This document shows, in pieces, positions 3 through 53,237 of a stretch of DNA of 64,000 nucleotides. Numbering within the stretch: the first letter of the stretch is position 1; every line of letters starts with the position of its first letter. The notes under the pieces are model-generated. The model ran no database searches and was not told the origin of the DNA. It saw nothing but the letters and a program-made list of their open reading frames with translations. The stretch spans positions 23,188,001 to 23,252,000 of the forward strand of contig OZ024742.1 of assembly GCA_964016885.1 (NCBI GenBank), given 5' to 3'. Source of the stretch: Eledone cirrhosa. Its lineage: Eukaryota. Position numbers and translations under genes: made by a program.

Positions 3-1585
3 ACTATCAACATCGGTGACAACAAGAATAACAACAATAATAACAACAATAATGACAACACCACCAATACGGATTCCACAAAGAAACCAAAAATCTCCTT
101 TGCAGAGAAAGTTCAAAAGAAGGAAGAATTGATATATCTGGACATAACAAATGCTGAACAACGTTTAAAGGACGCTAAGAGATATGTCACTTTCGAAAAA
201 AATGGTGCTTTCAGCATCAATTCTCCGGTAGAAATTCGCAAGGAAACTGCTCTCAAAACGAGAGTTTTTAGGACAGTTTCCAATTCTACCCGAAAACCAG
301 TCCAATTGTCACAGAAAGAAATTGAACTGGTTTTCAAAAATTCAATGAATGATATTGCATTCATTCTAAGAAGCAAACTTTTTGGGAGTATTTCGGTACT
401 CATGAAGGATCAATTGACGGCCCAAAATTACTCTGTGTCGCCAATTGTATCCAACCTGTACAGCTTTTTCCCTACATACATGGGAAAAAGGACACAAAAG
501 ATCAGAATAACGAGTGTCACACCAAAGGTGAACATATGGTGGATACTGTGCGGCTTCATCAATTTTGATGAAGACAGAATACTGTCAGTAGGAAAGTCCC
601 CCAGAGATGTATTCAATGGGACTAGCATTGAAGTTCTGGTGCAAATGAGCCCAGAGCGAATAGCTATGATCCCGCAGCGTGTACTCCTGGACGGACTCAC
701 CTACATAAACTTTTCGGTTGAGGGTAGGCGGCCTTCATGTTACCATTGCTTTAGCAGGGGTCACCTGAGGGCTGCCAGTCCTAAATTAATGAACCAAAAA
801 AAGGCTCTTCTGCCGACACCCATCAAAACAACACAACCACCAACACCACCACCACAACAACAACACCAACACACAAAAAAAAACCACAACAAACACAGTC
901 CCACCCAACCCCACTCCACCTAAAACCACTGCAAAATCACATACAGACACAACAGCTCCCCAAGACATACCCCTCCCCAATCACACAGACGATGCAACAG
1001 ATGAGGCTATCTCGCCATCACCCAGTGAAGACGAGGGAGAACCCCATCGCTCGAAAAGAAAGAAAAGACATCACAAAAGCAAAAAACCAGCAAACACTAC
1101 CACAAACATACAACCACCAACACAAACAACAAAACACATCACAAACCAAACTCCCACCTCCTGAAAACAAAATACCTACAACAAAACGAAAGCACACACA
1201 AGAACTACAGACAAAAACAAACACAACACAAGAAAATTACACTTACACTTACATAAACACTGAAAACAAAACACTAATGGAGACCATCACGAACGACCCT
1301 TCGGTGAAAACCGAAGGGAAAACTTTCGCCCACTCTATTAAAAATAGCAAAAAACTGAACCTAAAACTGATTAGGGTCCCTATACAAACTTATAGGTCCC
1401 TAAAAGAAACATTTGAGAAGGATGTGGGGAATTCCTGCGTGAAACCACTCAACCGCGTCCTTCTCAAATGCCTCCCCACCCCAGACACCCCCATCCCACC
1501 AGACCCCACCCTACGAAACATCTGCGTCCCCACCCCGCCGGAAACCACCACCCATCCAGACAACACCTCCAACACCCCCATGTAA
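3..1585 (+). pseudogene. LINE ORF1 (gag-like nucleic-acid-binding protein), frameshifted
   Basis: The frame of ORF 129..923 is open from base 3 (TINIGDNKNNN...ISFAEKVQKKEE). It contains a degenerate knuckle CYHCFSRGHLRAASP and a Pro/Thr/Gln-rich linker. A frameshift, probably in the A-run near 875, leads into ORF 992..1585, which stops 72 nt before ORF2. Confidence 0.75.
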
Positions 1586-1657
1586 ATCGTGCGGCCTGGT
1601 CCCCAGGAGGCGAAGGGTGAGTGATCTTTTTTCCTCTTTTAACTTTTCAGCACCAAC

Positions 1658-4600
1658 ATGGCCAATATAAGAGTTGGATGTGTGAACGTACGCGGCCTGG
1701 GGATGCCCTGGAAACAGGGCAAACTCTTAAACGACCTCAGGTCGCACAGTATGGATGTGGTAGCCATTTGCGAGTCCAGGATCCACGGCGAGCGACAGCT
1801 GGCCCCTTCTTCAATGACTTTGAGATCTACGCATCTCTCTGTCAACTGGGGGGTGGGGCCGAAGTTGCCATTTTCCTGCGGAAACACCTGGGCCACGTAA
1901 CACAGACGGTACATCTGGCCCCGGAGGGTCGACTGGTGGTCCTAGACGTTGACGGTAGTGAAGGTGGAGCCTTCAGGCTGGTGGCCGCATATGCCCAATC
2001 CGGGACACCACGGCCAGCCTTCTTCAAACGTCTAGAGACTTTTCTGGGACCGTCCCACTCCTTGCTTTTAGTGGGGGACTGGAATAGAATCCTAGATGCA
2101 CGTTGGGACTATGTGGGAGCATGTCCCGATAAATGGGGGTGTAACAGCCTCAAACAGTTAATCGACCGATTTGACCTGGCCGATAGATATCGACTAGATT
2201 TTCCGACTGCGCCACTGTGGACGTGGAGTAATCGTCGCGGAACATCTAGATCGTACCTAGATAGGGTTCTAGTTAGAAATAAGGATAGGGACATGTTAAG
2301 CTGTCCACAAATGTTCATGGTTGCCTATTCAGATCACAAACTAGTGACCTGCATGGCCAACCTTCATAGAACCCATAGACAAGGACCCGGCTACTGGAAG
2401 CTGAACTTGTCGTTACCGACAAGCAAAGCCTACAGTAGACGGATTAGCACTTTAGTTAAACAGCACTTCACACAGGCCAATATCAACAACAGATGGTGGT
2501 ACTCTCTCAAGAGGGCAGTTAGATTAGACTCGATAGTTTTTAGTAAAGAATTAGCGTTAGATAGAAATAAAACCGAGAAGGAACTGGTAGATAAAGTAGA
2601 AGAGGCATTTAGGAGTGGCAACGTAGCCAGCGTGCTAGCAACGAGAACGGCCATGGACCAGTTCTTCGACGCAAAGCACGAGGGCTGCGTTGTCAGAAGC
2701 AAAATACGTGCTCAGGGAAACGAGGGAGCCAAAGCTGTTAGCTGGGACCGAGTGATGGACGCAAAAAGTGGCAACAAGTCCACGATTCGGTCTTTGAAAG
2801 ACCAAAACGGACGCGTGAAACGTGAGCCGAAGCAGATGTGTGCGGCTTTTCAGCGGCATTTTGCTCGGCTGTTCGGGGGGGAGGGGCGTCTGGTGAGGCT
2901 ATGGATTTCGGTCCATACCTCGACGGCCTACCGCGACTCTCGGACAGCGAGGCAAAGTTCTGCGAAAAGCCGATTTCAGCCACTGAGATAGGGGACGCGC
3001 TGAGCCAATGCGGCAAACGCAAATCTCCAGGTCTCGACGGTCTACCCTACGAATTTTACGTAGTAATGCCGGACTTATTCTCCAGTCTCCTGGAAGCGGT
3101 CTACTGCAACTGACAACAGAACGGGAGAATTCCCAGTTCAGTAACCGGTGGCGTGGTCACACTAATCAGAAAGGACGAGAATAAGGGGGGTGACATAGGC
3201 AACTTCCGGCCCATAACTCTGCTAAACACAGAGTTACAGATTTTGGCCAAGGTGTTGGCAAAGAGGCTGGCGCTTGTCGTCGAGAACCTGGTGGGAAATC
3301 GGAGACATGCGCAATCCCGACCAGGTCCATACACGACAACCTCCACCTCATGCGATACATCATAGAGAGGGTGGGGTGTAAACCCGGCTTAGGTGGGGCC
3401 CTGATCAACTTGGATCAGTGTAAGGCTTTCGATAGGGTTGACCATCGTTACCTGGATGCGGTGCTCGAGGCGGCAGGCTTCGGACCCGTGTTCAGGGGCT
3501 GGATTGCTGCAATGTACAACAGCAACATCTGCTCAAGGGTCAAGGTGAACGGTTACCTCTCGGAGCCGTTCCATATTACGCGATCCATTCGACAGGGATG
3601 CCCTCTCTCCTCCCTTCTGTACGTACTGACTCTCGAGCCACTACTGCGGAAGCTGGAGCTATTGCAAGGCATCCCTATGGAACCGGGACTGAAAAAGCGG
3701 CGTCGGACTACGCCGACGACGTGACAGTAATGGTGTCGAGCGCCTCGCAAATCGAGGAAGTCGGCATCTTACTGAAGGAATACGAAAGTCTCACAGGAGC
3801 GAAACTGAACCGGGACAAGTCCATCGGTTTGCAACTCGGATCGTGGAGAGGCAAACCGATGCCTTCCGATGGCGTCGTCGGACGCTGGACGGAAAGACCG
3901 GTAAAGCTGCTCGGGGTCTGGTTTTGTCCGGACCTCCAGGTGTAGAAGAACTGGAACGAAGTGACGGCCAAGGTGTTTGCACTCACCCAGAAGTGGGCCG
4001 AGTGCAAACTATCCTTGAAAGGTCGAGCGGAGGTGGCGAACGCTTTTATAGCGTCCGCCATCTACTACCGCTTGACCGTCGTGCCTTGTCCAGCCAAAAC
4101 GCTCGCCAAAATGGAGCGCGCGCTCTTCCGATTCCTTTGGAAGAGGCGGGCTCCTTTGGTGAGAAGATCCATCTGCTGCCAACACCCTTCTAACGGAGGG
4201 CTGGGGATGCCGTGGTTGACGATGCGCAAACACGCGCTCAGGCTGCGGCATCTCTACGTATTCCTCACCGGACAACCGGTGTGGGCCCCGTTCGTGAGGC
4301 GAGCCTTCCCACGACTCGTCTCGCTGACCGAGCTGCAGTCCTGGGTCAAGCAAAGACCGAGTAAAATGGGCGACTGGCACATCGAATGTGCTCAGGCGCT
4401 CACAGCCCTCTGGCAGGCGGACCCGGCGATCAGTGGAGACTCCACTTCGTCATTCTATAGAGGGTTGGTCCGCAGCAAGTGCGACGACGCGCTCGGTGAA
4501 ACTCTAGGCGTAGAGGAAGATGAACTGGCCAGTCTGTTCGGTAGGACCTTCCGCCCGGGACCGATGGACAACTTCCAAAAGTCCCTGGCCTGGCAGTGCT

Positions 4601-5065
4601 ACCGAGGAGCTCTACCAGTTCGGGACAAGCTCTACAGACATGGGCGCCCGGGCAGGGACCCTGCAAAAAAGATCTGTCCGAGTGCGTGCGAGACGAAGAA
4701 ACCGTCGCGCACGCATTCATACACTGCCCGGGCGTCAACGACCTGTGGGCTATGTAGAACGACTATTGTCGCGGGTGGGACCAATCCGGTTGACCACCGA
4801 GTCCATTGTCATGATCAAACCGCCACCCTCCTTCCTTTGTGTGATAGCTATGGCGAAAGAGGTTGTATCGTGGACAAGGTTGAAAGGTCTGAGGTCAGAC
4901 ACCTTTCTCTCCGGCCAACAACTGATTCTTTTTTTCAAATACCACTTTGGAAGAAGAATCAGGATGGAGAGAGAGGTGCTGTACCCCAGCAAGTTTTATG
5001 AAAGGTGGGTGAAAGTGGCGAGAATGGCCCGAGTAAATGGGCCTTCTCTCTATATCAGCCTGTAG
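1658..5065 (+). pseudogene. LINE ORF2: AP endonuclease + reverse transcriptase + C-terminal zinc finger, multiply disrupted
   Basis: APE motifs: MANIRVGCVNVRGL, LVGDWN, SYLDRV, SDHK, GYWKLN. RT motifs: KSPGLDG, FRPITLLN, LDQCKAFDRVDH, RQGCPLS, YADDVTV. A frameshifted CPxC..EETVAHAFIHC lies near 4675-4730. Several frameshifts, plus in-frame stops at 3111-3113 and 3943-3945. Confidence 0.93.
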
Positions 5066-5602: not shown

Positions 5603-6980
5603 ATATTATATCTCTATATAAATATATCCATCTATTTATCTTTCTATTATCTATCTATCTCTATATTAATCTATCTATTTATATATCTGTCCATCTATCA
5701 ATTATTTATCTATCTATCTATATTTCTCTCTGTTTTTCAGGCTCTTTCACTCTCTCTCCCCCTTTCTCTATTTGTGAATATATGCTATTAAGTATACACA
5801 CACATAATTACTAGTTATTCGTTACTTAGAAAAGTTCTTTCGCCACACATTATTTGTCTACTTCAATGATTATTGGTTCTCTGTTGTGCCTGGCAAGAAG
5901 GAATAACAGATTCATACCGGAAAGAATATAACCCGAGTGTGTTTTATATTTTATTCTTAATTCAGCCGGAGATTTACATTCCCATTTGCCCTTTAAAGCA
6001 TAACATTCCGTATTTACTACGGTTACGAAATGCGGTTTCTTATTCAGGTACAACCTCTGATTTTAGCCTAAGAAAATATCTATATGCGTGTGTAATTTAT
6101 ACACGCAAATATTTATTTTTTTAATTTCAATTGAGTTCTTAACACGTTGGATTGATAATGTTTTCGAAAAAACTGATTAACCCGCGTGTATATTATATTT
6201 TTTCTCCTTTCGTGGATCGTAGTTGTCTCCCCTTCCCGCTTAGTGACGCTATAATACTTCCTCAGTCAAAAACTGCTGGAATTTCAAATTTGCCGGTCAT
6301 TCGATGCGTGAAGGAGCAACTTAACAGACACGATTTTTAACTGCGGTAAGAATTTGTTTCTTATATCAAAGTTTAATGGGCTTCCACTGATGATTTATAA
6401 ACGCCCACCTAAATGTATTCTTACATGAATGTATATTAGGCTTCTACATAAACTGGAAATATTCTCCGAATTTGTATAAAACTTATAATGAAACAATTGT
6501 TTGGAAAGAGAGATATATTTTAACTTTAATTATATCTCACAAAATAATACAACTGGCTTTTCCACATAATACATATTGTTAGCACCCCAAACACTTAAAT
6601 TGGGTTTATATTAAAATATAACCTAATGTTTGTTGAGTGAGATGGTTACCAGTCAGAGATTAGCTTTAAACTATCTCTGTTATTGTATTAATATATATAT
6701 ATATATATATATGAACGGAAAAAATGAAACGAAATATCATTCCTCACTCTTAGTATGGCTGTTACTTAAATATAAGTATGTATAAGTACTTACATGTATG
6801 TATACAGACGTACAGTAGTATGTTTATATATATATACATGCACACATATATATATATGTACGTATGGATTCACCGAACATTTATGATAATGCTCGGTGTG
6901 TTTGTAAACAAACATCCCGAATTAAGCCGTACAGTGTCTAGTAACAATCGTTGCCCTTTTGTTCACACACTGACAAAGGA

Positions 6981-7023
6981 ACGCTGTACTAGTTTCAAGC
7001 TTATTAGCTATCGTCAGCAACGT
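6981..7023 (-). ncRNA. Type I hammerhead ribozyme, intact core (family A)
   Basis: Minus strand reads acgttg CTGACGA t-agct-aata-agct-t GAAA ctag TA cagcgt. Stem I acgttg/cagcgt, stem II agct/agct, palindromic minimal stem III (ACTAGT), GUA cleavage triplet. Confidence 0.88.
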
Positions 7024-7306
7024 ATACCTTCCTGCCAGGTGGTGGAACGTCTGAAAGTATATACTTTCCTTATGCATATTAACGGCTGAGCAGCCTAATT
7101 TGCATATCGTATACATACTTATATTTATATTTAAGTAACAGCCGTACGAAGAGTGAGAAATAAAATTTCGTTTCATTTTTTCCGTTTATCGTTTTCGGTA
7201 CACCGGCCGATTAACTCACTCGATATGCAAATTCGGCTGCTCAGCCGTTAATATGCATAAGGAAAGTGTATACTTTCAGACGTTCAACCCTCTGACAGGA
7301 AGGTAT

Positions 7307-7349
7307 ACGTTGCTGACGATAGCTAATAAGTTTGAAATTAGTACAGCGT
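7307..7349 (+). ncRNA. Type I hammerhead ribozyme (family A), core intact, stem variants
   Basis: acgttg CTGACGA tagctaataagttt GAAA ttag TA cagcgt. Confidence 0.8.
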
Positions 7350-7749
7350 TCCGTTGTCAGTGTTGAACATAAGGGCACCGATTGTTGCTAGATGCTGTAC
7401 GGCTTAATTCGGGATGTTTGTTTACAAACACACCGAGCATTATAATAAATGTTCGGTGAATCCATACGTACATATATATATATATATATATATATGTGTG
7501 CATGTATGTATGTATATATACATACTATTGTACGTCTGTATATATATATGTATGTACGTATACATACTTATATTTAAGTAACAGCCGTACTAAGAGTGAA
7601 AAATGAAATTTCGTTTTATTTTTTCCGTTTATCGTTTTCGGTACCCCAGCCGATTAACTCACTGGATATGCAAATTAGTCTGTTCAGCCGTTAATATGCA
7701 TAAGGAAAGTATATACTTTCAGACGTTCAACCATCTGGCAGGAAGGTAT

Positions 7750-7792
7750 ACGTTGCAGACGATAGCTAATAAGCTTGAAACTAGTACAGCGT
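7750..7792 (+). ncRNA. Hammerhead ribozyme (family A), core mutated (CAGACGA)
   Basis: acgttg CAGACGA tagctaataagctt GAAA ctag TA cagcg. Confidence 0.72.
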
Positions 7793-8177
7793 TCCTTTGT
7801 CAGTGTTGAACAAAAGGGCAACGATGGTTGCTAGACACTGTACGGCTTAATTCGGGATGTTTGTTTACAAACACACCGAGCATTATAATAAATGTTCGGT
7901 GAATCCATACGTACATATATATATATATGTGTGCATGTATGTATATGTACATGCTACTGTACGTCTGTATACATATATGTATGTACGTATATATATTATA
8001 TTTAAGTAACAGCCGTACTAAGAGTGAGAAATGAATTTTTGTTTCATTTTTCCCGTTTATAGTTTTCGGTACCCCAGCCGATTAACTCACTCGATATGAA
8101 AATTAGGCTGCTCAGCCGTTAATATGCATAAGGAAATTATATACTTTCAAAAGTTCACCCATCTGGCAGGAAGTTAT

Positions 8178-8220
8178 ACATTGCTGACGATAGCTAATAT
8201 GCTTGAAACTAGCACAGCGT
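8178..8220 (+). ncRNA. Hammerhead ribozyme (family A), cleavage triplet mutated to GCA
   Basis: acattg CTGACGA tagctaatatgctt GAAA ctag CA cagcgt. Confidence 0.72.
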
Positions 8221-8623
8221 TCCTTTGTCAGTGTTGAACAAAAGGGCCACGATGGTTGCTAGACACTGTACGGCTTAATTCGGGATGTTTGTTTACAAAC
8301 ACACCGAGCATTATAATAAATGTTCGGTGAATCGAACGTACATATATATATATATATATATATATGTGTGCAAGTATGTATATATATATATATACATACT
8401 ACTGTACTTCTGTATACATATATGTATGTACGTATACATACTTATATTTAAGTAACAGCTGTACTAAGAATTTGAAATGAAATATCGTTTAATTTTTTCC
8501 GTTTATCGTTTTCGGTACCCCAGCCGATTAACTCACTGGATATGCAAATTAGGCTGCTCAGCCGTTAATATGCATAAGGAAAGTATATACTTTCAGACGT
8601 TCAACCATCTGGCAGGAAGGTAT

Positions 8624-8666
8624 ACGTTGCTTACGATAGCTAATGAACTTGAAACTAGTACAGCGT
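8624..8666 (+). ncRNA. Hammerhead ribozyme (family A), core mutated (CTTACGA)
   Basis: acgttg CTTACGA tagctaatgaactt GAAA ctag TA cagcgt. Confidence 0.68.
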
Positions 8667-8972
8667 TCCTTTGTCAGTGTTGAACAAAAGGGCAACGATG
8701 GTTGCTAGACACTGTACGGCTTAATTCGGGATATATGTTTACAAACACACCGAGCATTATAATAAATGTTCGGTGAATCGATACGTACATATATATATGT
8801 GTGCATGTATGTATATATATATATACATACTAGTGTATGTCTGTATACATATATGTATGTACGTATACATACTTATATATATATATATATATATATAAGC
8901 AGGTATACGTACATACATATATGTATACAGACGTACAGTAGTATGTATATATATATATATATATACATACAA

Positions 8973-9049
<77 letters not shown>

Positions 9050-11650: not shown

Positions 11651-11795
11651 TATATGTATATATATATACATGTAGAAGGTGAGTTTTATTGTAGCACAAT
11701 AAAGCAATACGCATATCGGATAAGTAGCACTCATCGGTTTATAGGACTGGAGTATAAATAATATAAAATCAAAAGATGGTTAAAAGAGTTCCAAG

Positions 11796-11866
11796 TATTT
11801 TATTATGCGCATTTCAAAAACAAATATCATCATGGGTTGATATTTGCGTTCTCATCAGATAAAATA
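11796..11866 (-). ncRNA. Type I hammerhead ribozyme (family B, PLE pseudo-LTR)
   Basis: Minus strand reads tattttat CTGATGA gaacgcaaatatca..tgatatttgttttt GAAA tgcgca TA ataaaata. Stem III is palindromic (ATGCGCAT). Confidence 0.82.
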
Positions 11867-12098
11867 GGGAGACATGATATGAAGCTTAAAAAACACTTGC
11901 GAGCAGTAAAGTGTTAAATCAACATATGAAAAATAAAATAAAATGTATATATGAGATTGGGAAAAAAGGAAAGGAAGGGGAGGAAGGAAAAGGTAAGGAA
12001 GAGGAAGAAAGAATATAATAATAAAAAAAATAATAAGGAAAGGATGACTGAGGAGGAGTATAAGAAGCAAGGATGAGAGAGGAGGAGAACATGAGTGG

Positions 12099-12129
<31 letters not shown>

Positions 12130-12597
12130 TTTAATACTGAGAAACACTGTCTTACAGAGAGAAATAAAAAAAAAACGTTGTAAGATAATACATAATTAAA
12201 AAAAAAATTTAGAAATTGAATGTTAATGAGGTTTATGAATGGTGATGCTTATAATTAAAGAAAAATGAATTAAGAATACTATTTATTTAAGGTTTATATA
12301 TTGAAGGGTTTAATAATATGTGCGAAAGGAATTTATTAAAATGTATTATTAAAATAAAATATATTAAGGAGATAAGGTGAATGAAGATAAGGTTAAATGA
12401 ATTATGAACTTAGAGGAATCAGTTAGGGTCCAAGTTTGTTTCTATGTATTGTAATAGGAACAAGTAAATAATAGGTTTAATACGAGCACGGAAGGAGAGA
12501 AGAAAGAAGAAATTCAATGAAGAAAAAATATATAACGTCAAAAAAAATATATGTTTACAAAATTTACTAATGGTAATATTAGTATAATATTAGTATA

Positions 12598-13610
12598 AAG
12601 TTATCTTTGACGCTAAAGCCAATAATTACAATAATGCGCTTTTCAGAGCCGGTTATCCTGACAAAATTAAATACGGTAAAAAAACCAATCATCGAGGGAT
12701 ATATAGTAATAAAGAAAAGACCTAGATATAAAAATATGATTTAGTACAACGTTCCTTTTTCTCTATCTATTATTAGTAATATTCTTAAACTATTTTTAGG
12801 GCCTTAGATACATGCTTCCCTCCCTTGCATATTTATAGTAAGATCTTTAACAAACATACAATTAAATTGTCTTATTCCTCCACTTCCAACATCTCTAACA
12901 TTATCTCTAAACATAATAATAACATATTAAGTAATAAATTATAACCATCCATCACTGAGCGTCATGATAATAGCAATAGTAAACCCGATGTCAATGTTAA
13001 CTATAGGCTAGATTCCGTAAATTTAAATACGACGTCAAACTTAACTTTGTCGAATGTTCATAACACCAATCTAAATCAGGAAACTTTAGCACCTATCGTA
13101 AATAACTTCTCTAATCCAATTCCTTCTATAAATAATACTAGGTCACTTGTTAATAACTCTGGTAATTTCTCTAATCGTAATTGCAATTGCCCTGTTAGAA
13201 CTAAATGTCCTCTTAGTAATCAATGTCTTGATGACAATTTAGGTTATGAATGTAAGGTTATAACTGGTACTAATTCTTAAACCTATTTTGGTTCCATTTC
13301 CACTTCCTTTAAAGCAAGATTTTATAATCACAATTCTTCTTTTAAATACCAACTTGAAAGAACTAACACGCACTCTCAGAACTCATATGGTCCTTAAAGG
13401 ACAAAAATATTAACTACAACATTTTTTGGAGGAAGGTTTCCAACGCCTCTCCTTACTTGAATTCTTCCCTATCCAGAACATGTAATCTCTGCCTAGCGGA
13501 GAAATTTACCATTATCTCCAATTTTAATTCTATAATAAATAGACGTACGGATTTAATTTTGCTCTGCTTGCATAAATCCCATAGAATTTTCATAAAGTAT
13601 ACAGCTAATA
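12598..13610 (+). pseudogene. PLE ORF remnant: RT thumb/linker + GIY-YIG endonuclease
   Basis: Manual translation across stops and frameshifts gives VIFDAKANNYNNALFRAGYPDKIKY, CFPPLHIYSKIFNKHTIKLSYSSTSNISNIISKHN, CNCPVRTKCPLSNQCL..GYECKV..TYFGSISTSFKARFYNHNSSF and CNLCLAEKFTII. Confidence 0.82.
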
Positions 13611-14405
13611 TCTTACTACCTAATTAGTTTAAAATCTTCTTTTCTCAAACGCTTTTATATCTTTTACAAATATTCCCGTGTTTCTACCTTATTTCAGTAT
13701 ATTATACAATTTACTCATACTATGTCGTTAGCGGTCCCCTAATTTTTTTCTTTTTTATCCTCTTTTTCTTTTTTAATTTGTAATCTTTAATCTGCAACTT
13801 TTACTTCTCAATTATTTCTTAATTCATATTATAATTCACTATAGCATTTTCCTTATATTCTCAACCATACACATTTTTATTTTTAATATATACTAATATT
13901 ACCATTAGTAAATTTTGTAAACATATATTTTTTTTTACGTTATATATTTTTTCTTCATTGATTTTCTTCTTTCTTCTCTCCTTACATAGAAACAAACTTG
14001 GACCCTAACTAATTCCTCTAAGTTCATAATTCATTTAACCTTATCTTCATTCACCTTATCCCCTTAATTTATTTTATTTTAATAATACATTTTAATAAAT
14101 TCCTTTTCGCACATATTATTAAACCCTTCAATATATAAACCTTAAATAAATAGTATTCTTAATTCCTTTTTCTTTAATCATAAGCATCACCATTCATAAA
14201 CCTCATTAACATTTAATTTCTAAAATTTTTTTAAAATTATGTATTATCTTACAACGTTTTCTTTTTAAATTTCTCTCTGTGAGACAGTGTTTCTCAGTAT
14301 TAAATGTTATCTCTCTCTTTCTCTCACTCACTCTCTCCTCATCCCTCATCCTTCCTTCTTATACTCCTCCTCCCTCATCCTTTCCTTATTATTATATAAT
14401 TGTTT

Positions 14406-14589
14406 GGTGATGGCTGTATCGGTAGAGGGTCGGACGCCATGCTTTGACGCATAGAATTACGGCCCTTGCCATTCTGAGTTCAAATCCCGCCGAGGTTAAC
14501 TTTGCCTTTCATCCTTACGGGGTCGATAAAATAAAGTACCAGTAATGCACTGGTGAATTGCTGGCTTTGTGCCAAAAGTAGAAACAATC
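14406..14589 (+). mobile_element. SINE family 1 inserted in the right PLE pseudo-LTR
   Basis: Absent from the left arm. attatata occurs on both sides (possible target-site duplication). Confidence 0.85.
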
Positions 14590-14756
14590 ATTATATATTT
14601 TTTTCTTATTACATTCTTTCTTCCTCTCCCTTATCATTTCCTTCCCCCCTTCCTTTTCTTTTTTTTCCCAATCTCATATATCCATCTTATTTTTCATATG
14701 TTGATTTAACACTTCACTGCTCGCAAGTGTTTTTTAAGCTTCATATCATGTCTCCC

Positions 14757-14827
14757 TATTTTATCTGATGAGAACGCAAATATCATCCCATGATGAGATT
14801 TGTTTTTGAAATGCGCATAATAAAATA
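14757..14827 (+). ncRNA. Type I hammerhead ribozyme (family B)
   Basis: tattttat CTGATGA (14765) gaacgcaaatatcatcccatgatgagatttgttttt GAAA (14808) tgcgca TA ataaaata. Confidence 0.82.
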
Positions 14828-14879
14828 CATGAAACTCTTTTAACTATCTTTTGATTTCATATTATATATATATAACTCT

Positions 14880-24447: not shown

Positions 24448-24735
24448 AGGTAGTAACATGTGCTTATGCCTTATTTGACTAAATAGAATTAGTCAGTTAG
24501 TTGGGATTAAAAAAGGACGTATTGACGTATATGGGAAACGAACCCACATCTTTGGTTTGCCGGACCAATGTGTACCATTACACATAGGTAACATATTGGT
24601 CGAGTAAACGAAAAATGTGGGTTCGTGTTCCATGTACATCAATACTCATCCTTTTTCCCATTCAGAGAGTATCTTAAATCCCAACTAACAGACTAAGTCT
24701 ATTTAGTCAAGTACGGCATAAGCACGCTAATACCT
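24448..24735. mobile_element. Imperfect palindrome made of two head-to-head copies of a tRNA-headed element
   Basis: Minus strand 24587-24531: D arm gtgt-aatggt-acac, anticodon arm ttggt-ccggcaa-accaa, T arm gtggg-ttcgttt-cccat. Mirror copy on the plus strand from ~24588. Confidence 0.62.
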
Positions 24736-51684: not shown

Positions 51685-51807
51685 TATATATATATATATA
51701 TAAACGGAAAAGATGAAACGAAATTTCATTTCCGACTCTTAGTACAGGTGTTACTTAAATATAAGTATGTACACGTACATGCATAAATGTATACAAACGT
51801 ACAGCAG

Positions 51808-51885
<78 letters not shown>

Positions 51886-52026
51886 CATGCACACATATAT
51901 ATATATGCACGTATGGATTCACCGAACATTTATTATAATGCTTGGTGTGTTTGTAAACAAACATACCGTATTAAGCCGTAGTGTCTAGCAACCATGGTTG
52001 CTCGTTTGTTCAACACTAGCAAAGGA

Positions 52027-52069
52027 ACGCTGTACTAGTTTCAAGCTTATTAGCTATCGTCAGCAACGT
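52027..52069 (-). ncRNA. Type I hammerhead ribozyme (family A), intact
   Basis: Plus strand reads acgctgtactagtttcaagcttattagctatcgtcagcaacgt. Confidence 0.88.
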
Positions 52070-52450
52070 ATACATTCCTGCCAGATTGTTGAACCTATAT
52101 ACTTACCTTATGGATATTAACGGCTGAGTAGCCCATTTTGCATATTGAGTGGGTTAATCGACCGGGTGCACCGAAAACGATAAACGGAAAAAATGAAACG
52201 AAATTTCATTTCCCTCTCTTAGTACGGCTGTTACTTAAATATAAGTATGTACACGTACATACATATCTGTATACAGACGTACAGTAGTATTTATATATAT
52301 ATATATACATACATGCACACATATATATATGTACGTATGGATTCACCGAATATTTATTATAATGCTCGGTGTGTTTGTAAACAAACATCCCGTATTAAGC
52401 CGTAGTGTCTAGCAACCATGGTTGCTCGTTTGTTCAACACTGACAAAGGA

Positions 52451-52493
52451 ACGCTGTACTAGTTTCAAGCTTATTAGCTATCGTCAGCAACGT
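52451..52493 (-). ncRNA. Type I hammerhead ribozyme (family A), intact
   Basis: Identical 43-mer to 52027-52069 and 6981-7023. Confidence 0.88.
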
Positions 52494-52711
52494 ATACCTT
52501 TCTGCCAGATGGTTGAACGTATATACTTACCTGATGCATATTAACGGCTGAGTAGCCCAATTTGCATATTGAGTGAGTTAATCGGCCGGGTGCACCGAAA
52601 ACGATAAACGGAAAAAATGAAACGAAATTTCATTTCCCATTCTTAGTACGGCTGTTAATTAAATATAAGTATGTACACGTACATACATATATGTATACCG
52701 ACGTACAGTAG

Positions 52712-52759
<48 letters not shown>

Positions 52760-52921
52760 CATGCACACATATATATATATGTACATATGGATTCACCGAG
52801 CATTATAATAAATGTTCGGTGAATCCATACGTACATATATATATGTGTGCATGTATGTATATATATATATATACATACTACTGTACGTCTGTATACATAT
52901 ACGTATGTACGTGTACATACT

Positions 52922-53184: not shown

Positions 53185-53237
53185 GGGATCGTCCTGACGA
53201 ACGCCAGTTAAGCCTGAAATGCATAGACGGTTGTCCC
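53185..53237 (+). ncRNA. Type I hammerhead ribozyme (family F)
   Basis: gggatcgtc CTGACGA acgc-cagttaa-gcct GAAA tgca TA gacggttgtccc. Palindromic stem III ATGCAT. Confidence 0.78.

What the first reader, a model, noticed from the sequence alone, without database searches (positions are those of the whole stretch)
6713..8975. Tandem ~435 bp non-coding repeat with one hammerhead ribozyme per unit: candidate cephalopod retrozyme / circRNA family
Seen: four direct copies and one inverted copy. The consensus HHR is acgttg-CTGACGA-tagctaataagctt-GAAA-ctag-TA-cagcgt, with an extended stem I (gttcaac..tggcagga / tcctttgtca..gttgaac) carrying a bulge. No ORF. Established: metazoan non-LTR retrozymes are short tandem repeats with type I HHRs whose transcripts self-cleave to monomers and circularise; HHRs with a minimal palindromic stem III are thought to act as dimers, which tandem copies permit. 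Inference: read-through transcription would release ~430-445 nt monomers or circles. I cannot confirm by search whether this family has been described.
Basis: partly seen in the sequence, partly recalled or inferred. Interest (0 to 1): 0.9.

Follow-up and report, generated by a model that had tools for sequence, protein, structure and literature searches.

The report
Hammerhead retrozyme with Penelope insertion scars
This is one partly decayed insertion of a short non-coding repeat that carries a predicted self-cutting RNA motif at over 28,000 places in this animal genome; the fixed, paired ends of its copies suggest it is pasted in by an enzyme borrowed from Penelope-type jumping genes, likely copying a small RNA circle, and such elements are already known from other animals.

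Summary
Real. Four direct ~440-bp units and a head-to-head inverted partial unit each carry a type I hammerhead motif. Three of the four direct copies have a mutated catalytic core, so this array is probably dead. The family is large: 28,193 exact cores, with covarying helices (11 of 14 pairs). It is a new member of the known animal non-LTR retrozymes.

Its insertions carry the Penelope-like-element (PLE) signature: two fixed 3' ends about 58 nt apart (113 of 141 arms), mostly on (TA)n, variable 5' ends, and head-to-head arms using one end each (22 of 24). A coding PLE in the same genome shows this pairing too (7 of 9). Arms read through the cleavage site, and locus-private variants are fixed across units, which fits reverse transcription round one RNA, probably a circle.

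Cleavage, expression and circles are untested, and no coding PLE sharing the unit was found. This scan has already reported the same kind of element on other DNA, including sister families in this genome.

The parts
6690..6710 (.). (TA)n target, left side
   Evidence: sequence
6711..7109 (-). inverted arm: 5' end at 7109 (123 nt before its cut site), 3' end at the far fixed end END2 (tail included) at 6711
6981..7023 (-). hammerhead motif, all core bases intact; predicted cut between 6987 and 6986
7108..7109 (.). head-to-head junction of the two arms, about 2 nt shared
7108..8878 (+). direct arm, about 4 units; 5' end 236 nt before the first cut site, 3' end at the near fixed end END1 (no tail) at 8878
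7307..7349 (+). hammerhead copy 1, core intact, G.U changes in helices II and III
7574..7632 (+). tail between END1 and END2 (about 58 nt, with a hairpin); one internal copy shown
7668..7675 (+). ATGCAAAT, octamer-like motif (name recalled), kept in 22 of 26 aligned units including the sister family; role untested
   Evidence: counted by eye
7750..7792 (+). hammerhead copy 2, core position 4 mutated (CAGACGA); extended stem I spans about 7725-7811
8178..8220 (+). hammerhead copy 3, cut-site triplet GCA in place of GUA, mismatch in helix II
8624..8666 (+). hammerhead copy 4, core position 5 mutated (CTTACGA), helix II damaged
8879..8892 (.). (TA)n target, right side
   Evidence: sequence
8893..8975 (-). 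short inverted END1-type piece without hammerhead, tail-to-tail; probably a separate nested insertion
   Evidence: sequence; (D11)
51700..52919 (-). second insertion of the same family: minus arm with two consecutive intact hammerheads (52487, 52063) ending at END2, plus a short plus-strand arm 52794-52919 ending at END1

Best explanation
It is a protein-free, hammerhead-bearing tandem repeat of the animal retrozyme kind whose two-armed insertions are likely made by a borrowed Penelope-type reverse transcriptase-endonuclease, probably copying a unit-length RNA circle. Steps: (1) inferred: arrays are transcribed, and neighbouring hammerheads pair through the palindromic helix III, cut after GUA and release ~425-515-nt monomers that a host ligase closes; (2) footprint shown, enzyme inferred: a PLE protein makes a staggered cut in (TA)n or AT-rich DNA (9-13-bp duplications where readable) and primes both DNA ends, one at END1 and the other at END2, ~58 nt apart; (3) inferred: each cDNA runs through the rejoined cut site for a fraction of a turn to several turns; (4) shown: the two 5'-truncated arms join head-to-head; (5) shown: some arrays later grow to 10-50 units by local block duplication, and old copies such as this one decay.
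For: 28,193 exact cores, reversed control 0. Covariation in 11 of 14 pairs over 25 distinct sequences of four families, 0 of 500 shuffles as high, slid controls far lower; helix III stays a palindrome. Within the family one stem I pair takes five paired forms in 131 of 136 copies. Outside the ribozyme the unit also covaries (18 of 74 pairs; one pair A-U 11, G-C 11). 113 of 141 arms end at END1 (58) or END2 (55), 99 of those 113 on TA repeats; 22 of 24 classifiable head-to-head pairs use one end each, p=1.8e-5. A coding PLE of the same genome shows this pairing in 7 of 9. This matches published PLE anatomy and the two internal start sites that bound the PLE tail. Duplications of 13 and 12 bp (L007, L008) and 9 bp (L147, by eye). 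Cut-site spacing is intact in 184 of 188 motifs, and none of 191 3' halves begins exactly at the cut. Locus-private variants are fixed across units in 5 of 47 loci (shuffled mean 0.33, max 3) and in 8 of 16 loci of the younger sister family (mean 1.1, max 3). The window's five units diverge star-like: 53 derived changes, 2 shared pairs.
Against: No cleavage, transcript or circle was observed. Rfam does not match the motif. Helix II closes with U.U in the family (23 of 25 rows unpaired), and 8 of 9 Xenopus dimers did not cleave in vitro. For a lizard PLE, hammerhead cleavage was dispensable and uncut RNA was the main template in vitro. None of three PLE families examined carries the unit as its terminal repeat. 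Only 8 of 53 one-armed 5' junctions lie in (TA)n, which the model does not explain. In family A the two arms were each other's nearest unit in only 6 of 33 loci. The shuffle controls do not remove relatedness, and most loci were chosen for an intact core or likeness to the window.
Confidence: 0.6

Rival explanations
1. Same PLE enzyme and footprints, but the template is the uncut linear multi-unit transcript; the hammerhead is weak or acts at another step and circles play no part in copying.
For: Uncut RNA was the dominant substrate of a purified PLE. Read-through of the cut site fits this equally well. No RNA evidence here.
Against: Private variants fixed across all units of a locus need a one-unit bottleneck. 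The two-unit blocks of L109 and L148 are not shared (11-18 differences between full units), so no inheritance of ordered unit series was seen in that one comparison.
Confidence: 0.2
2. The enzyme copies a cut linear monomer and jumps from its 5' end back to its 3' end, which stem I holds together, giving tandems without a covalent circle.
For: Explains uniform units within a locus. Folding puts the two ends side by side.
Against: Cut-site spacing is exact in 184 of 188 motifs and no arm stops at the cut; end-to-end jumps usually leave extra or missing bases (own knowledge).
Confidence: 0.08
3. Another machinery (a LINE enzyme or DNA rolling-circle transposition) spreads the repeat.
For: No coding PLE shares the unit. 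LINE remains are present in the window.
Against: Two internal fixed ends, paired use of them and a (TA)n target are shared with the coding PLE here and are described as PLE traits.
Confidence: 0.07
4. A plain satellite that grew by unequal crossing-over, with a relic hammerhead.
For: Long arrays do show local 2-, 4- and 8-unit blocks. Three of four direct copies here have a mutated core.
Against: Dispersed over many contigs; 107 of 141 arms hold a single hammerhead and most have fixed ends; target duplications; covariation.
Confidence: 0.03

Closest known systems
Metazoan non-LTR retrozymes (coral, Mytilus mussel, axolotl; Cervera and de la Pena 2020, PMC7229834; parts 2-4 of 6 read)
   Same: Short ORF-less tandem units, one type I hammerhead each, low GC, long target duplications, thousands of copies. 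Axolotl HHR_Amex2 has the same two-pair helix III and U.U at the base of helix II.
   Different: Unit 424-516 bp with an internal microsatellite hairpin. Two fixed 3' ends and head-to-head arms are not described in the parts read. Cleavage and circles are shown there, not here.
Vertebrate retrozymes as non-autonomous PLE derivatives (Li, Clavereau, Pollet 2026, bioRxiv 10.64898/2026.07.22.740005; parts 1-3 of 5 read, all main text)
   Same: Same class and same proposed helper.
   Different: Their link rests on co-occurrence and pLTR homology (24 of 57 Xenopus families matched repeats, nearly all PLEs); here it rests on insertion footprints and no pLTR homology was found. No mollusc class is among the 35 genomes listed.
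Penelope-like elements: insertion anatomy (Craig et al. 2021, 10.1101/2021.04.23.441226; passages read) and internal initiation (Frangieh et al. 2024, PMC11167929; parts 1-2 of 4 read)
   Same: 5' truncation, partial tandems, inverted 5' copy, tail on one end only, microsatellite or AT-rich target, two start sites bounding the tail. [quoted passage not shown]
   Different: No ORF. Tail about 58 nt against 30-40 bp published (about 90-96 nt in the coding PLEs here). Short helix II with an AAYA loop against the long helix II of PLE hammerheads in this genome.

Membership tests
Type I hammerhead ribozyme | Core CUGANGA...GAAA...UH in type I order | tested here: met
   28,193 exact cores; in this array only copy 1 and the inverted copy
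Type I hammerhead ribozyme | Three helices kept by compensatory change | tested here: met
   11 of 14 pairs, 0 of 500 shuffles; much of the signal comes from three sister families
Type I hammerhead ribozyme | Match to an Rfam hammerhead model | tested here: not met
Type I hammerhead ribozyme | Loop 1-loop 2 tertiary contact | tested here: inconclusive
   Loop 2 AAYA is kept in families A, B and C while helix II differs; no partner shown
Type I hammerhead ribozyme | Site-specific self-cleavage | not testable with these tools
   needs in vitro transcription
Metazoan non-LTR retrozyme | Short tandem units with one type I hammerhead each | tested here: met
Metazoan non-LTR retrozyme | No protein coded, GC under 50% | tested here: met
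   GC 33-38%, no long ORF in four units
Metazoan non-LTR retrozyme | Target duplication longer than 4 bp when present | tested here: met
   13, 12 and 9 bp at L007, L008, L147; unreadable in (TA)n
Metazoan non-LTR retrozyme | No LTR, PBS or PPT | not tested
   no dedicated search; no LTR seen in the locus maps
Metazoan non-LTR retrozyme | At least two consecutive complete hammerheads ('active' by Li et al.) | tested here: not met
   not met by this array; met by the window's second array and others
Metazoan non-LTR retrozyme | Expressed as linear and circular monomers | not testable with these tools
   needs RNA data or a blot
Non-autonomous Penelope-like element | Fixed 3' ends with a tail on one end only | tested here: met
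   113 of 141 arms; 22 of 24 pairs
Non-autonomous Penelope-like element | Inverted 5'-truncated copy and partial tandems | tested here: met
   34 head-to-head pairs in 103 loci; 5' ends spread along the unit
Non-autonomous Penelope-like element | Microsatellite or AT-rich target | tested here: met
   99 of 113 fixed ends followed by TA repeats
Non-autonomous Penelope-like element | Ends homologous to the pLTR of a coding PLE | tested here: inconclusive
   not found in the three PLE families examined; the genome holds more

The most novel reading that the evidence does not exclude
These insertions record a PLE enzyme pair priming both cut DNA strands at two different fixed sites of one small RNA circle and copying round it. 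That would be genomic proof that animal retrozyme circles are PLE transposition intermediates, and would show that the PLE tail and inverted copy are products of one coupled two-strand reaction.
Probability: 0.45. Interest if true: 0.65.

Novelty: new member of a known kind. Interest (0 to 1): 0.42.

Why it matters
How animal retrozymes move is an open question: PLE help has been proposed from co-occurrence and pLTR likeness, and the source of PLE tandem/inverted structures is described as still undefined. A family with tens of thousands of copies, two mapped start sites and young near-identical arrays gives a ready substrate for the existing in vitro PLE assay. The element class itself is known, and this particular locus is an old, partly dead copy.

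Tried and rejected
RNA evidence: no RNA holder listed (six runs of unrecorded kind). Laying their contigs says nothing on expression; the skewed variant mix in X6 was not used. Depths were not used as copy numbers.

Rfam: only AT-rich microRNA-like chance matches below gathering score. The bacterial promoter scan is irrelevant to an animal locus.

Helper search: the L091 PLE family and the families next to arms in L106 and L026 have their own ends. The apparent PLE/retrozyme chimera at L147 is an insertion into a PLE ORF with a 9-bp duplication. The PLE-tail fusion at L004 is single-copy.

Faulty or biased counts dropped: (end motif matched the wrong place); the end-pair counts (motif matches its own complement; only its duplications are used); the junction count and the core-conservation rate (selected for intact cores). 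One search is superseded. Folding z-scores of whole units (-5 to -11) are inflated by the microsatellite hairpin. The idea that two-unit blocks were moved as dimers was not supported.

Full report
1. Observation. The repeat is there: four direct units at 7121-8878 (period 443) and an inverted partial unit at 6711-7109, joined head-to-head. Each has a type I hammerhead motif with a 6-bp stem I, an extended bulged stem, a four-pair helix II closed by U.U and a palindromic helix III. A strict scan gives 5 hits in the window against 0.06 per shuffle. Rfam misses it. Only direct copy 1 and the inverted copy keep all core bases; copies 2, 3 and 4 each carry a core change. A second insertion of the family lies at 51700-52919 with two consecutive intact motifs.

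2. The family. In the 3.0-Gb own genome a 41-nt motif has 4,370 exact matches and the core with a free 14-nt helix II has 28,193; reversed controls are 0. Four sampled units run 424-516 bp at 33-38% GC with no long ORF. One stem I pair is U.G in 102, G.U in 20, A-U in 4, C-G in 3 and U-A in 2 of 136 copies. Three other short-hammerhead families turned up: B (466-469 bp, 4,078 exact cores; clearly homologous along the unit), C and D. Over 25 distinct motifs of the four families, 11 of 14 pairs change on both sides, above all 500 shuffles and all slid controls, and helix III remains a 6-nt palindrome, as needed for dimer pairing (dimer model from PMC4209133, part 1 of 4 read). These controls do not remove relatedness. 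The rest of the unit also covaries (18 of 74 pairs).

3. Insertion anatomy. I mapped 141 arms in 103 loci. The loci were the 30 best DNA matches, first-listed pattern matches on contig C1, and chance finds near PLEs, so they are not a random sample. 58 arms end at END1 (about 216-218 nt after the cut site), 55 at END2 (about 58 nt further), 4 run on and 24 could not be classed; 99 of the 113 fixed ends abut TA repeats. 5' ends are spread along the unit. Of 34 head-to-head pairs, 24 could be classed and 22 use one end each (p=1.8e-5); the window's array is END2 plus END1. Where the target is not (TA)n, duplications of 13, 12 and 9 bp are readable. This is the published PLE pattern: partial tandems, an inverted 5'-truncated copy, a tail on one end, (TA)n bias, with the tail bounded by two internal start sites and both strands extended in vitro. 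A coding PLE family in this genome (32,867 candidates; RT-like region, Cys motif and endonuclease-like C-terminus in a 715-aa frame; nearest clusters carry HTH_animal and GIY-YIG; Neptune or Nematis type by the motif described) pairs its ends the same way in 7 of 9 cases, including a decayed copy at window 11768-14855.

4. Template. Arms pass through the cut site with exact spacing in 184 of 188 motifs outside the four longest arrays. Of 191 3' halves, 5 lack the upstream half, and none of those begins exactly at the cut. So the template was uncut or rejoined. Variants private to a locus are fixed across its units in 5 of 47 family A loci (shuffled mean 0.33, max 3) and in 8 of 16 family B loci (mean 1.1, max 3) (long, disrupted or duplicate loci were left out). 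In B, whole haplotypes are shared by both arms. The window's five units differ star-like, as if laid down identical and aged separately. This favours one unit copied repeatedly. It does not exclude a uniform linear multimer, and for a lizard PLE uncut RNA was the main template. Arrays of 10, 25 and 50 units show local 2-, 4- and 8-unit blocks, so they grew after insertion.

5. Helper. Not identified. Three PLE families have their own ends and long-helix-II hammerheads or no clear motif. Only 8 of 53 one-armed 5' junctions lie in (TA)n; several are fused, in the same orientation, to the inside of PLEs or other repeats. Target deletion or template switching would both give this, and I could not separate them.

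6. Comparison. The element fits the animal non-LTR retrozymes, for which PLE help is proposed and supported by pLTR homology in Xenopus. Searches listed no paper on cephalopod retrozymes; the giant squid genome paper counts 235 Hammerhead_1 matches without analysis (passages). The supplement of PMC7229834 and bioRxiv supplements could not be seen and may list such species; Dfam and Repbase were not available. Earlier notes of this scan describe the same kind of element with the same footprints in this and other genomes; none matched this sequence by word search. My reading was stated before the look-up, and those notes are not independent support.

7. Verdict. A real, ordinary-class element: a new member of a known kind. 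About 0.9 that it is a PLE-mobilised retrozyme, about 0.6 for the full chain including a circular template. The coupled use of two start sites is the useful, testable part. Interest 0.42.

Noticed in passing
window 53188-53231 (+): An unrelated short type I hammerhead motif (family D) begins just after the (TA)n beside the second array; different stems, palindromic helix III.
   Followed up: partly
window 11768-14855: Decayed two-armed coding PLE with long-helix-II hammerheads at 11858 (-) and 14765 (+); ends END2 plus END1.
   Followed up: yes
L095:2300-2900, L098:5760-6720, L181-L220: Sister family B, 466-469 bp, young, arrays up to 31 units, same two ends where classed.
   Followed up: yes
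L053:20-490, L131:2540-3030: Family C: 310-bp spacing, U.U-closed helix II and AAYA loop as in family A but different stems.
   Followed up: partly
window 7668-7675 and each unit: ATGCAAAT is kept in 22 of 26 units while its predicted pairing partner changes in some subfamilies. Newt satellite 2 is cited as having an snRNA-type promoter (passage in PMC2220036); that such promoters hold an octamer is recalled. The reverse motif lies upstream of the hammerhead in another PLE family (L223, L226).
   Followed up: no
L026:2022, L036:1583, L004:2467, L106:7781: Retrozyme arms fused at their 5' end to PLE 3' regions in the same orientation, twice to the family of L238; deletion or template switch.
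   Followed up: partly
L147:460-3210: A PLE carrying a retrozyme insertion is partly duplicated in inverted form together with the insertion junction.
   Followed up: partly
window 5900-6690: The left flank is itself a repeat whose contig depth rises toward the (TA)n; probably another retroelement ending in the same microsatellite.
   Followed up: no
L162: One two-armed insertion repeated at 2,586-bp spacing as part of a larger tandem duplication.
   Followed up: no
window 785-5065: Frameshifted LINE-like remains with endonuclease-like and RT-like frames.
   Followed up: no
window 24524-24589 (-): tRNA-like match at 34.3 bits, possibly a SINE head.
   Followed up: no
639 kb of fetched loci: Many further hammerhead families with long helix II, several at PLE ends, with a shared short hairpin motif at the start of their tails.
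   Followed up: partly
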